The notes below the pieces were generated by a model. It made no database searches. It was not told the DNA's origin and saw only the letters and a list, made by a program, of their open reading frames with translations. 64,000 nt of DNA from Spirochaetales bacterium UBA6872 (lineage in GTDB: Bacteria > Spirochaetota > Spirochaetia > Sphaerochaetales > Sphaerochaetaceae): NCBI GenBank assembly GCA_002452215.1, contig DKCO01000043.1, positions 3,406 through 67,405 on the forward strand. The letters run 5' to 3'. A program made the translations under genes and the position numbers. Shown piece after piece: positions 33,706 to 36,507 of this stretch (its first letter is position 1; each line of letters begins with the position of its first letter).

Positions 33706-34122
33706 TCAAGGTTTTTGAGAAAGTATTTCACGAATCTTTATAATGCAATCATCAAGAATACCTGATGTATTTATCCTATCGACTCCGGCAATATAGTTGT
33801 CGCATAAGTTCATCGGCAAAAGAATACGAACAGCATTGCTACGTCCAACAGCCAATGCCATATCTGGTGTTATTTCACCCCACAGGGAATCGGCAATGGC
33901 TATGCCAATCGGCCCGATGATAATGTCTGCTGTACGACATCCAACCACAACCGCATTTTCGCCAGTTGCCGTTCGATCCGCTCCGGCTTTAAGCATCGCT
34001 TGGGATGCAAGCGCATTTGTACCTACAGCTGTTATAATCTGCTCCGGAAAGTTTTTCTTGATATTCTCTACAAGCTTGCGGCCAACACCACCGCCTTGTC
34101 CATCTATGATTAGTATATTCAT
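33706..34122 (-). CDS. DUF3842-like small protein
   Basis: 138 aa. The N-terminus MNILIIDGQGGGVGRKLVE... recalls the DUF3842 family. It is the first gene of the ABC operon. Confidence 0.5.
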   Translation of the reverse strand: MNILIIDGQGGGVGRKLVENIKKNFPEQIITAVGTNALASQAMLKAGADRTATGENAVVVGCRTADIIIGPIGIAIADSLWGEITPDMALAVGRSNAVRILLPMNLCDNYIAGVDRINTSGILDDCIIKIREILSQKP

Positions 34123-34451
34123 GTTACTGTCCTTTCAAATACAAAGCATATCTGCCAAGCAAATAGTCCTTGATTTTCTATCTCGTTTCTCTCTTTTAGG
34201 CATCGATATACTACCAAGAAAACAAACATAGCGCTATATACATCTTTAGCCAAACTCAGATAGTGGTTGGAACATAGATCTGATTGTCTTGAGATGCAGA
34301 GTGCAAATCCAGAGCTCGAAAAGAGCGATTTCATGAGATTCTGCCTTTTGTATGAATGCTCATTACTTGACTTCCATTCCTCAATGCTGTGCTACCCACT
34401 ACTGTGATGAAGACTATCAACAATCAAATGTGCAAAAAATGTTTTAAAGAA

Positions 34452-34556
34452 CTGAAAGCTCCAGATGCAACTAGAGCCTTCAGTTATCGGCTGTTAGAGA
34501 ATATGCAAAGCATCAAAATCAATCAAAAGATGGCACTTGTCGCCAACATTGTAGAC
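34452..34556. repeat. Direct repeat copy 1: orphan duplicate of the 3' end and downstream hairpin of the ABC ATPase gene at 35422-36507
   Basis: 34471-34556 matches 35399-35484 at 85 of 86 nt. The preceding 19 nt match at 14 of 19. Confidence 0.9.
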
Positions 34557-34637
34557 GTTAATGCATCTTACATAATGACAGCATGTTGATATTAGACTAA
34601 CATTTGCGCATACTAGACTTAACAGAAGGTGTTCTAT

Positions 34638-34910
34638 ATGGCAACAACTAATTTAAATATTCGCACAGACAAGACAATCAAAAATCAAGCAGAACAAATC
34701 TTCAATGAACTCGGTCTGAATATGACAACTGCTGTAAATATTTTCCTAAGAGCCACTATCCGTGAGCATGGTATTCCTTTTGAATTGAAATTGGAAACAC
34801 CGAATGACACTACAGTCGCTGCAATTGAGGAAGGCAGAAAGATGATGGATGATCCTTCTGCTCCACGATATTCCAACATAGATGAACTTAAGGCAGCATT
34901 GGACATATGA
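34638..34910 (+). CDS. dinJ: RelB/DinJ-family antitoxin
   Basis: MATTNLNIRTDKTIKNQAEQIFNELGLNMTTAVNIFLRATIRE... is a typical DinJ N-terminus. The ATG at 34638 follows AGAAGGTG; the ORF-track start at 34629 is a GTG. ATGA overlap with the toxin gene. Confidence 0.85.
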   Translation: MATTNLNIRTDKTIKNQAEQIFNELGLNMTTAVNIFLRATIREHGIPFELKLETPNDTTVAAIEEGRKMMDDPSAPRYSNIDELKAALDI

Positions 34911-35188
34911 AATATGATATTCAGTTTACCAATCAGTTCAAAAAAGATTTGAAGCTTGCAAGAAAGCAAAAGAAAAATCTTGATAAGCTGTTTGAAGTAG
35001 TCGACATTCTGGCAAATGGTGGTAAGCTGGAAGCAAAATACAGGGATCATGATCTTGCAGGCGATTATAAAGGCACGCATGAATGTCACATTGAGCCAGA
35101 CTGGTTGTTTATTTATGAGATTCAGAGCAATGCTTTAGTTTTAATGCTTTACAGACTTGGTACACACTCAGAACTATTCAAAAAGTAA
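34907..35188 (+). CDS. yafQ: YafQ-family type II toxin (mRNA interferase)
   Basis: 93 aa. MKYDIQFTNQFKKDLKLARKQ...DHDLAGDYKGTHECHIEPDWLFIY...LGTHSELF matches the YafQ pattern. Confidence 0.85.
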   Translation: MKYDIQFTNQFKKDLKLARKQKKNLDKLFEVVDILANGGKLEAKYRDHDLAGDYKGTHECHIEPDWLFIYEIQSNALVLMLYRLGTHSELFKK

Positions 35189-35379
35189 GTTCAGGAACAA
35201 AATAGAAATTTGAAAAGAATCTATGCCTAAATTGCTCGTAAAAGTATAGCAAAAACTGACAAGACTGACATCAAAATATCAATAGCCTTTGGCTATACAA
35301 TCACCACCTCTCAAGGTTTTCTCTACTTATCAAGCTCTAGCCACAACAATACATGGAGCCTTGAAATGTTTGCATATAT

Positions 35380-35484
35380 CTGAAAGCCCTAGAAAAAACT
35401 AGAGCCTTCAGCTATCGGCTGTTAGAGAATATGCAAAGCATCAAAATCAATCAAAAGATGGCACTTGTCGCCAACATTGTAGAC
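35380..35484. repeat. Direct repeat copy 2: the functional 3' end of the ABC ATPase gene plus its downstream hairpin
   Basis: See copy 1. 35422-35484 encodes the last 20 codons plus the stop codon of the ATPase gene. Confidence 0.9.
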
Positions 35485-36507
35485 TTTTCTATTCTTCGGA
35501 TTGTGATCCTCAAGCTTCACAAGCGTATCACCAAGCATGACATGGTAATTTTGATATGCACCCATGAAGCAAGACAGTACTACTTTGCACTCAAATCCTC
35601 CCGATTCAGCAAGGCTTGAGGCTTCAGGGCGCAAAACAATTGTATATTCCTTACCAATTTCAAGATTATTTTTCCTTGGAGCTAGAAGCTTATTGCCTTC
35701 AAAATCGAACAATGAATAGTCACCATCATCTCCGATGTACTTGCCTTTAAGGAAATTGGCTTCTCCGATGAAATCAGCAACAAATTCATCAACAGGATGA
35801 TAGTATACATCTTTTGGTGTACCCATTTGGGCTACTACGCCTTTGTTCATGATAATGATTTTATCAGATATAGCCATAGCTTCCGACTGATCATGTGTTA
35901 CATAGATTGCTGTTATGCCGACCTCTTGTTGTATACGTCGAATCTCGGTTCTCATTTGCACTCTAAGCTTTGCATCTAGATTCGACAATGGCTCATCGAA
36001 AAGAAGGACAGATGGCTCGATTACCAAAGCACGCGCAAGTGCAACCCTTTGTTGCTGGCCTCCTGAAAGCTGGTTTGTCATCCTATCTTCCATTCCTGAA
36101 AGCTCAACAAGGTCCAATATCTTCATTACTTTTTCTCTTATCACATCCTTCGGAAGTTTTCTCAGCTTCAAACCATATGCAACATTGTCGAAAATATTGT
36201 AATGAGGAAGAAGAGCATAGCTTTGGAAGACCATTGCTGTATCACGCTTGTTTGGCGTAAGACTGTTTATCGGCTCATTGCCGAGATATATTTCTCCTTC
36301 ATCAGGACTCTCAAAGCCCGCAATCATTCTCAAAGTCGTTGTCTTTCCACATCCAGAAGGTCCAAGAAGCGTCACAAAAGACCCTGCCTCTATCTCAAGA
36401 GATGTATCCTTCACAGCGTAAAAATCCTTCTTTGTCTTTGGATCTGTATATATCTTTGAGATATGTTCTAGACGAACACCTTTCTTTGTTTTCTCCATAT
36501 TATTCAC
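35422..36507 (-). CDS. ABC transporter ATP-binding protein (PotA/FbpC type)
   Basis: 361 aa with GPSGCGKTT, LSGGQQQRVALARAL, LLFDEPLS and a C-terminal TOBE-like domain. Confidence 0.85.
   Translation of the reverse strand: MNNMEKTKKGVRLEHISKIYTDPKTKKDFYAVKDTSLEIEAGSFVTLLGPSGCGKTTTLRMIAGFESPDEGEIYLGNEPINSLTPNKRDTAMVFQSYALLPHYNIFDNVAYGLKLRKLPKDVIREKVMKILDLVELSGMEDRMTNQLSGGQQQRVALARALVIEPSVLLFDEPLSNLDAKLRVQMRTEIRRIQQEVGITAIYVTHDQSEAMAISDKIIIMNKGVVAQMGTPKDVYYHPVDEFVADFIGEANFLKGKYIGDDGDYSLFDFEGNKLLAPRKNNLEIGKEYTIVLRPEASSLAESGGFECKVVLSCFMGAYQNYHVMLGDTLVKLEDHNPKNRKVYNVGDKCHLLIDFDALHIL

What the first reader, a model, noticed from the sequence alone, without database searches (positions are those of the whole stretch)
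34452..35484. dinJ-yafQ cassette bracketed by long direct repeats that duplicate the 3' end of an ABC ATPase gene
An 86-nt segment at 34471-34556 is repeated 928 nt downstream at 35399-35484, matching at 85 of 86 nt. Similarity extends weakly for another 19 nt to the left. The right copy forms the last 20 codons, the stop codon and the 3' flank of the ATPase gene at 35422-36507. The left copy is an orphan fragment. Between them lie only the toxin-antitoxin pair and about 280 nt of non-coding DNA. The geometry is what a Campbell-type single crossover of a small circular element carrying the homology would leave behind. An insertion repaired with a long duplication would look the same. No integrase or transposase is nearby, so how the cassette moved is unexplained. 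The ORF-track ORFs at 34389-34589 and 35431-35619 share MQSIKINQKMALVANIVD only because they run antisense through the repeat.
Basis: seen in the sequence. Interest (0 to 1): 0.62.

Follow-up and report, generated by a model that had tools for sequence, protein, structure and literature searches.

The report
Toxin-antitoxin cassette between duplicated gene ends
A small, horizontally acquired toxin-antitoxin gene pair sits inside the tail of a transporter gene of an uncultured gut bacterium, between two copies of that tail; a few strains lack it, and the same scar surrounds related cassettes in other species, which points to a way for such selfish genes to enter genomes without a mobility enzyme of their own.

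Summary
An 86-nt core (34471-34556 and 35399-35484, 85/86 identical) is repeated 928 nt apart. Weaker similarity runs out to 34437/35364. The genome holds only these two copies.

The right copy is the last 20 codons, stop codon and terminator-like hairpin of an ABC ATPase gene. The left copy is an orphan. Between them lie an intact relB-yafQ operon and 291 nt of non-coding DNA.

The predicted empty site exists. Four conspecific contigs join the flanks through one repeat copy, and about 25 carry the insert.

No integrase, transposase or terminal inverted repeats are present.

The relB-yafQ module (34557-35224) is 75-87% identical in DNA to modules in many Clostridia genomes, whereas the host is a diderm bacterium. 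Similarity starts exactly at the edge of the left repeat.

In other species this module lies between unrelated long direct repeats (20-536 nt). This holds for 9 of 68 loci against 2 of 424 control positions.

Best reading: a recombinase-free "insertion with long target duplication", so far described for restriction-modification genes.

How the duplication arose is unresolved.

The parts
34437..34556 (-). Left (orphan) copy of the ATPase gene end. The core is 34471-34556. The outer part, 34437-34470, is only about 70% like the right copy. This copy is identical to the single copy found at empty sites.
34450..34485 (-). Hairpin of the left copy: 15 bp, dG -22.6 kcal/mol, z -5.95. At empty sites it lies 11 nt after the ATPase stop codon.
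34557..35224 (+). The relB-yafQ module as conserved across species, from promoter region to about 36 nt past the yafQ stop. DNA similarity to modules of 80 other species begins at 34558-34573 and ends at 35187-35224.
34586..34614 (+). Promoter-like site TTGATA-17-CATACT. It aligns with the conserved TTGACA...TATACT of related modules.
34638..34910 (+). relB/dinJ-type antitoxin gene, 90 aa.
   Evidence: PF04221, E = 1.2e-15
34907..35188 (+). yafQ toxin gene, 93 aa, overlapping relB by 4 nt. The residues that align with E. coli YafQ H50, H63, D67, H87 and F91 are present.
34940..34945 (+). A6 run in yafQ codons 12-13. It is A7 in most conspecific contigs, which shifts the frame and replaces the N-terminus (91-aa form).
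35225..35363 (.). 139-nt spacer of unknown origin inside the insert. It holds a terminator-like hairpin on the minus strand at 35296-35282.
35364..35484 (-). Right (functional) copy: last 20 codons, stop codon and hairpin of the ATPase gene. The outer part 35364-35398 and C at 35413 differ from the resident version.
35380..35411 (-). Hairpin of the right copy: 13 bp, dG -23.3 kcal/mol, z -5.6. Its loop and 3' arm differ from the left copy but pairing is kept.
35422..36507 (-). ABC transporter ATPase gene (ABC_tran + TOBE_2). Gene callers use the ATG at 36498. It is the last gene of an SBP-permease-ATPase operon running from 39416 to 35422.
33706..34334 (-). Resident left neighbours: orf71 (34119-34334) and the DUF3842 gene (33706-34122). 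At empty sites orf71 lies 160 nt from the ATPase stop.

Best explanation
A 928-bp piece of foreign DNA lies inside the last 20 codons of the ABC ATPase gene. It consists of a complete, self-promoted relB-yafQ addiction operon, 139 nt of unknown origin, and a copy of the ATPase gene end.

The gene is not broken, because its last 63 coding bases, stop codon and hairpin are present twice. The copy on the ATPase side completes the gene. The other copy is left as an orphan on the far side of the cassette.

The cassette encodes no mobility enzyme and has no defined termini. I infer that host recombination or repair inserted it. This matches 'insertion with long target duplication', known for restriction-modification gene pairs.

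Once made, the structure can do two things:
- spread between strains by ordinary homologous recombination of the flanks;
- be lost by recombination between the two repeats, which would give exactly the empty site observed.

I also infer that such fragile repeat-flanked inserts are seen mainly around addiction modules because cells that delete them are penalised by the stable toxin.

Shown here: the structure, the insert/no-insert polymorphism, the foreign origin, the absence of a recombinase, and the recurrence of the scar. Inferred: the joining mechanism, the direction of the polymorphism, and the stabilising role of the toxin.
For: 1. Structure. The repeat is confirmed and unique in the genome.

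2. Empty sites. Four conspecific contigs join 34556 directly to 35485 through one repeat copy (L040, L043, L051, L062). About 25 contigs are occupied.
- L043 is a k=31 Logan contig that runs unbranched through the 71-nt identical stretch, so it cannot be a collapse of an occupied genome.
- Logan contigs of an occupied sample break at 34514 and 35455, as expected for a repeat.

3. Foreign origin.
- The module is 75-87.5% identical in DNA to relB-yafQ modules in 80 other species, mostly Lachnospiraceae and Oscillospiraceae.
- The host carries an Omp85/BamA gene, so it is a diderm bacterium.
- The 36 congeners searched with the whole region lack the module, and the insert's spacer and right arm are absent from all 81 genomes of the genus.
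- The insert has 36.6% G+C against 40-42% in the flanks.

4. Junction. Cross-species similarity starts at 34558-34573, exactly at the repeat edge at 34556/34557.

5. Recurrence. Direct repeats of at least 30 nt flank the module in 9 of 68 loci, against 2 of 424 control positions in the same loci (Fisher p = 5e-7).
- The repeats are unrelated in sequence and 20-536 nt long.
- Several duplicate a gene 3' end or a terminator (L098, L129, L131, L135).
- The ends of the insert vary from 59 to 239 nt before relB and from 18 to 208 nt after yafQ.
- A second, distant relB-yafQ locus in this same genome also has 77-nt flanking repeats.

6. No mobility machinery.
- No tyrosine recombinase on the contig or near the orthologous ATPase gene in 12 congeners.
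- No mobility gene within 6 kb (gene tables).
- No terminal inverted repeats; the longest inverted match is 8 nt.

7. Precedent. The published criteria are met: target duplication over 30 bp, both genes of the pair included, no mobility gene, and one repeat copy in the other genome (Furuta et al. 2010, PMC2853133).
Against: 1. The repeat is not a clean fresh duplication. The outer 35 nt are only about 25/35 identical, while the core is 85/86 and every strain is uniform for each copy. At least that part of the right copy was not simply copied from resident DNA.

2. Nucleotide diversity in the insert (0.0031) equals that of the flanks. Insertion is therefore not shown to be the recent event, and the empty sites may all be deletions.

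3. Most contigs anchored by the ATPase gene (9 of 14) carry a frameshifted yafQ. That weakens the idea that toxin activity is what retains the cassette.

4. The control positions for the enrichment test lie in the same loci but mostly in ordinary genes. Variable regions may be richer in repeats in general.

5. No read-level evidence was available.
Confidence: 0.6

Rival explanations
1. Portable homology arm. The cassette travels as a circle, or as a linear 'ends-in' fragment, that carries its own copy of the ATPase gene end taken from another lineage. It integrates by a single host RecA crossover within the 71-86 nt of identity. The right copy up to the crossover is donor DNA, and the left copy is resident.
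For: - The right copy alone carries the C at 35413 and a diverged outer 35 nt. The left copy equals the empty-site sequence in all strains. This is what a crossover to the right of 34485 between a donor arm and the resident site would give.
- The diverged arm still forms an equally stable hairpin, as a homologous gene end from another lineage would.
- The 139-nt spacer carries a terminator in the ATPase direction.
Against: - No lineage with the donor-type gene end was found in 81 genomes of the genus, in the metagenome scan or in the protein cluster.
- A donor that is 30% diverged in the hairpin would hardly be 71/71 identical in the adjoining coding bases.
- The model does not explain how the arm was first joined to the cassette at 34556/34557.
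- No circle junction was seen. The metagenome pattern that would have matched the combination 'C at 35413 ... GTAGAC-G' found only one contig, and it was occupied.
Confidence: 0.2
2. Remnant of a site-specific integrative element (like a cis-mobilizable element). A larger island with an integrase once integrated into the 3' end of the ATPase gene. The two repeats are its attL and attR. Internal deletions removed everything except the toxin-antitoxin pair, which resists deletion.
For: - Direct repeats that rebuild a gene's 3' end are typical of integrase-mediated islands.
- Toxin-antitoxin genes are known to protect islands from loss (established knowledge, not tested here).
- The geometry is compatible with this model.
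Against: - No integrase on the contig or at the orthologous site in 12 congeners.
- The repeats around related modules in other species share no sequence and range from 20 to 536 nt.
- The module edge abuts the left repeat within a few bases. That would require a deletion ending exactly at the att boundary.
- In Eubacterium sp. F2 (L063) the insert carries ragged pieces of both neighbours from another context, as a random fragment would.
Confidence: 0.12
3. No mobility at all. The duplication and the cassette are an old, fixed local rearrangement, and the 'empty' contigs are assembly errors or rare deletions of no significance.
For: - Diversity in the insert equals that of the flanks.
- A wrong turn of an assembler at the 71-nt identical stretch would produce exactly the left-type single copy seen in the empty contigs.
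- Three of the four empty contigs have low coverage or come from a binned genome.
Against: - L043 comes from a unitig-style k=31 assembly, which cannot cross a two-in, two-out repeat node.
- The empty contigs lie on different flank haplotypes, and L051 also carries a disrupted neighbouring gene, so they are distinct strains.
- The module is clearly foreign and absent from congeners.
Confidence: 0.08

Closest known systems
Insertion with long target duplication of restriction-modification gene complexes (Nobusato et al. 2000, Gene 259:99; Furuta, Abe & Kobayashi 2010, PMC2853133)
   Same: - A small addiction-type gene pair with no mobility gene.
- Flanked by direct repeats longer than 30 bp and of variable length that are unique in the genome.
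- A related genome holds one copy at the uninterrupted site.
- The repeats often overlap the 3' end of a resident gene.
- Flanking repeats are enriched relative to ordinary genes.
   Different: - The cargo is a type II toxin-antitoxin pair whose toxin cuts mRNA, not DNA. The authors' suggestion that DNA breakage by the cargo drives the event cannot apply here.
- One repeat copy is partly diverged.
- In the library searched, no paper links this scar to type II toxin-antitoxin genes.
E. coli DinJ-YafQ type II toxin-antitoxin system (structures 4ML2, 4Q2U)
   Same: - Antitoxin-first operon with a 4-nt gene overlap.
- RelB-type antitoxin and YafQ toxin matched along the full length (E = 3e-19), with the catalytic His/Asp positions aligned.
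   Different: - Only about 40% identical.
- The copy studied here is an accessory, strain-variable insert, and many strains carry a frameshifted toxin.
Cis-mobilizable elements (CIMEs) and other integrase-less islands flanked by att sites, as described for ICESt1/ICESt3 at the fda gene end in Streptococcus thermophilus (recalled from memory)
   Same: - Direct repeats that rebuild a gene's 3' end.
- No recombinase inside the element.
- Could in principle be moved in trans.
   Different: - No cognate integrase-bearing element at this site.
- No shared att core among related cassettes.
- No fixed element ends.
Homology-facilitated illegitimate recombination during natural transformation (de Vries & Wackernagel 2002; Prudhomme et al. 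2002; recalled from memory)
   Same: - Foreign DNA is fixed using one stretch of homology and one illegitimate joint.
- No element-encoded enzyme is needed.
- It could give one donor-derived and one resident copy of the anchor.
   Different: - The described events usually delete recipient DNA rather than duplicate it.
- The anchor here would be very short.
- Competence of this organism is unknown.
Toxin-antitoxin cassettes of chromosomal integrons (Vibrio superintegrons)
   Same: Promoter-bearing toxin-antitoxin pairs as discrete cassettes between repeats.
   Different: - The repeats here are copies of the target gene end, not attC sites.
- There is no integron integrase.
- The repeat occurs only twice in the genome.

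Membership tests
RelB/DinJ-YafQ type II toxin-antitoxin system | Antitoxin of the RelB/DinJ ribbon-helix-helix family encoded directly upstream of the toxin | tested here: met
   PF04221 at E = 1.2e-15. relB at 34638-34910 overlaps yafQ by 4 nt.
RelB/DinJ-YafQ type II toxin-antitoxin system | Toxin of the YafQ family (RelE/ParE fold) with the catalytic His/Asp residues | tested here: met
   PF15738 at E = 7e-35, full length. Alignment to E. coli YafQ (4ML2, E = 3.4e-19) keeps the DH, H..EPD and GTH..LF positions. Which residues are catalytic is recalled from the literature.
RelB/DinJ-YafQ type II toxin-antitoxin system | Toxin arrests growth and the antitoxin neutralises it | not testable with these tools
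   Needs expression in a laboratory strain. The 91-aa frameshift form common in the population may be inactive.
Insertion with long target duplication (criteria of Furuta et al. 2010) | Flanking direct repeats longer than 30 bp that correspond to a single copy in a related genome without the insert | tested here: met
   The repeats are 86-124 nt. Four conspecific contigs hold one copy.
Insertion with long target duplication (criteria of Furuta et al. 2010) | Insert is short, contains the whole addiction pair and no mobility gene; the repeat is not a multicopy element | tested here: met
   The insert is 928 bp. Only relB and yafQ are encoded. The repeat occurs twice in the genome. No integrase on the contig.
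Insertion with long target duplication (criteria of Furuta et al. 2010) | Both repeat copies derive from the resident target sequence | tested here: inconclusive
   The core is 85/86 identical. The outer 35 nt of the right copy are about 30% diverged from the resident version in every strain.
Site-specific integrative element or its integrase-less remnant (CIME-like) | A cognate integrase-bearing element uses the same attachment site in the species or its relatives | tested here: not met
   No PF00589 hit on the contig or on the contigs carrying the orthologous ATPase gene in 12 congeners. All roughly 25 occupied contigs carry the same 928-bp insert. Serine recombinases were not searched genome-wide.
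Site-specific integrative element or its integrase-less remnant (CIME-like) | Related elements share an att core and fixed ends | tested here: not met
   The repeats around related modules are unrelated in sequence and vary in length. The insert ends vary.
Transposon / IS / MITE | Terminal inverted repeats and a short target duplication of fixed length | tested here: not met
   The longest inverted match between the insert ends is 8 nt and is not terminal. The duplication is 86-124 nt.
Integron gene cassette | attC recombination site and an integron integrase, with the repeat family recurring along an array | tested here: not met
   The repeat is present only twice and is a copy of the ATPase gene end. 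No Rfam or structured-element match in the region.

The most novel reading that the evidence does not exclude
Small addiction cassettes, both toxin-antitoxin pairs and restriction-modification pairs, may share a recombinase-free life cycle run entirely by host recombination.
- A promoter-to-terminator fragment is fixed with a long duplication of the target.
- The duplicated gene end then serves as a portable address tag. Recombination between the repeats releases cassette plus tag, and the tag directs re-insertion at the same gene end in related genomes.
- The stable toxin penalises loss.

The diverged right-hand copy would be the tag brought from another lineage.
Probability: 0.25. Interest if true: 0.75.

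Novelty: new variant of a known kind. Interest (0 to 1): 0.5.

Why it matters
How chromosomal toxin-antitoxin pairs move is an old open question. They are among the most mobile genes known, yet most chromosomal copies have no visible vehicle.

This locus is a clean natural example with three allelic states in one species: intact, frameshifted and absent. It carries a scar that was previously documented only for restriction-modification genes. The scar recurs around the same module in distant species.

The YafQ toxin does not cut DNA. The property shared with restriction-modification genes is therefore addiction, not DNA breakage, and that narrows the possible mechanisms.

The idea is testable in laboratory strains. 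One would measure the loss rate of a repeat-flanked cassette with an active toxin and with an inactive toxin.

Earlier notes of this scan report the same scar around other toxin-antitoxin families. This single case is thus one more well-supported instance, not a first sighting.

Tried and rejected
- **Generic intergenic repeat.** Rejected: only two copies in the genome.
- **Known RNA element in the repeat or spacer.** No Rfam match at E <= 1.
- **Plasmid or phage origin.** No phage match. Only distant plasmid matches to the coding part: 65% identity in Leptotrichia and 77% over 89 nt in Enterococcus.
- **Synteny in congeners, to decide which hairpin version is ancestral.** The ATPase orthologues (71-76% DNA identity) have unrelated downstream regions with their own terminators. 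They have neither DUF3842 nor a toxin-antitoxin pair within 1.5 kb, so polarity could not be set.
- **Source of the spacer and right arm (35189-35421).** Absent from 81 genomes of the genus and from the 80 module loci.
- **Census of the four junction types in JGI metagenome contigs.** An 86-nt pattern found only one contig, and it was occupied.
- **Empty sites for two other repeat-flanked cases (L098, L129) and for the second locus of this genome (L149).** Only occupied contigs are on record.
- **More diverged lineages of the species, sought through the ATPase protein cluster.** The five variants are all at least 99% identical, and all further contigs are occupied.
- **Carrier element of the module in Clostridia.** Pfam on the neighbours gave nothing informative, apart from an IS66 Orf2 / serine-recombinase fusion next to the L063 copy.
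- **Spirochaete identity of the host.** A FlaA family search rang nowhere, including the control genomes, so it says nothing.

Full report
**1.

- The sequence and the repeat finder show a direct repeat at 34452-34559 and 35380-35487, 94% identical over 108 nt.
- Its core, 34471-34556 versus 35399-35484, differs at one base: T at 34485 against C at 35413.
- BLAST carries the similarity out to 34437/35364, 90% over 124 nt with one gap. The two copies stop matching abruptly at 34556|34557 and 35484|35485.
- The 2.12-Mb assembly contains no third copy.
- The right copy is the last 20 codons, the stop codon (35422-35424) and the 3' flank of a 361-codon ABC ATPase gene (ABC_tran + TOBE_2). This gene ends an SBP-permease-ATPase operon on the minus strand.
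- The left copy is an orphan.
- Between the copies lie relB (34638-34910, PF04221) and yafQ (34907-35188, PF15738, E = 7e-35). The YafQ protein aligns along its full length with E. coli YafQ structures and keeps the His/Asp positions.
- Both copies fold into a strong hairpin that starts 11-13 nt after the stop codon (dG -22.6 and -23.3 kcal/mol, z about -6). The loop and the 3' arm differ between the copies.

**2. The predicted empty site exists**

- Exact-protein look-ups of the neighbouring genes returned about 25 distinct conspecific contigs, 99.2-99.9% identical, with the same 928-bp insert.
- Four contigs instead join 34556 directly to 35485 through one repeat copy. They are L040 and L062 (SPAdes metagenome assemblies), L043 (Logan) and L051 (a 37.9-kb contig of a public binned genome).
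- The single copy is always the left type.
- An assembler taking a wrong turn in the 71-nt identical stretch would give the same product, so I checked for this.
  - L043 comes from a k=31 unitig-style assembly that cannot cross a two-in, two-out repeat node.
  - Logan contigs from an occupied sample end at 34514 and start at 35455, as expected for a repeat.
  - The empty contigs lie on different flank haplotypes, and L051 also has a disrupted neighbouring gene.

**3. The cassette is foreign and discrete**

- YafQ relatives at 75-89% amino-acid identity occur in 80 species genomes. Most are Lachnospiraceae and Oscillospiraceae.
- DNA similarity to the window reaches 87.5% over 641 nt. It always starts at 34558-34573 and ends at 35187-35224. 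The left junction of the insert therefore coincides with the upstream edge of the conserved promoter-relB-yafQ module.
- The host genome encodes an Omp85/BamA protein, so it is a diderm bacterium.
- The 36 congeners searched with the whole region lack the module.
- The 139-nt spacer and the right arm are absent from all 81 genomes of the genus.

**4. There is no mobility machinery**

- No mobility gene lies within 6 kb (gene tables).
- No tyrosine recombinase lies on the 80.7-kb contig.
- None lies on the contigs carrying the orthologous ATPase gene in 12 congeners.
- The insert has no terminal inverted repeats.
- There is no Rfam element in the region.

**5. The scar recurs**

- Around the same module in other species, direct repeats of at least 30 nt bracket the cassette in 9 of 68 loci. 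Eight of these are independent events. At control positions in the same loci the figure is 2 of 424 (Fisher p = 5e-7).
- The repeats are unrelated to one another and range from 20 to 536 nt.
- Several repeats duplicate a gene end or a terminator.
  - In L098 the last 34 nt of a PNPOx-family gene are duplicated, so the upstream gene keeps a stop codon and the downstream gene keeps its start region.
  - L129 and L135 duplicate gene 3' ends.
  - L131 duplicates a terminator.
- The distances from the repeats to relB and yafQ differ from case to case.
- In Eubacterium sp. F2 (L063) the insert carries 159 and 152 nt of the neighbours that flank the module in a commoner context. This looks like random fragments rather than an element with fixed ends.
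- In the window's own genome a second, distantly related relB-yafQ locus (contig C27) is also bracketed by a 77-nt repeat. One copy lies inside a GH1 gene and the other is an orphan.

**6. Comparison with what is known**

- The pattern matches 'insertion with long target duplication' (Nobusato et al. 2000; Furuta et al. 2010, PMC2853133). That pattern is defined by repeats over 30 bp, a complete addiction pair, no mobility gene, and a single copy in the other genome. It has been reported for restriction-modification systems of all types.
- In the library searched, I found no paper that links this scar to type II toxin-antitoxin pairs.
- Earlier notes of this scan report the same scar around other toxin-antitoxin families. 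I treat those as leads. The tests above were run independently on this module.
- Furuta et al. suggested that DNA breakage by the cargo drives the event. YafQ is an mRNA nuclease, so the shared property here is addiction. I infer that repeat-flanked inserts, which are inherently unstable, persist preferentially when their loss is penalised.

**7. What remains unexplained**

- The repeat is heterogeneous.
  - The core is 85/86 identical, but the outer 35 nt are only about 25/35, and every strain is uniform for each copy.
  - A fresh copy of resident DNA cannot have diverged that far, given that strains differ by less than 1%.
- Nucleotide diversity in the insert (0.0031) is like that of the flanks (0.0023-0.0073). 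The insert has therefore been in this species for as long as the sampled diversity, and the empty sites may be secondary deletions between the repeats.
- Among 14 contigs found through the ATPase protein alone, 4 have the intact 93-aa yafQ, 9 have an extra A in the A6 run at 34940-34945 that replaces the N-terminus, and 1 is empty. If the 91-aa form is inactive, toxin-enforced retention cannot be the whole story.

**8. Verdict**

- I give about 0.6 to the general reading: a recombinase-free insertion with long target duplication of a horizontally acquired addiction cassette.
- I give about 0.2 to the specific portable-arm (Campbell) route, about 0.12 to a remnant of an integrase-borne island, and under 0.1 to a static rearrangement with spurious empty sites.

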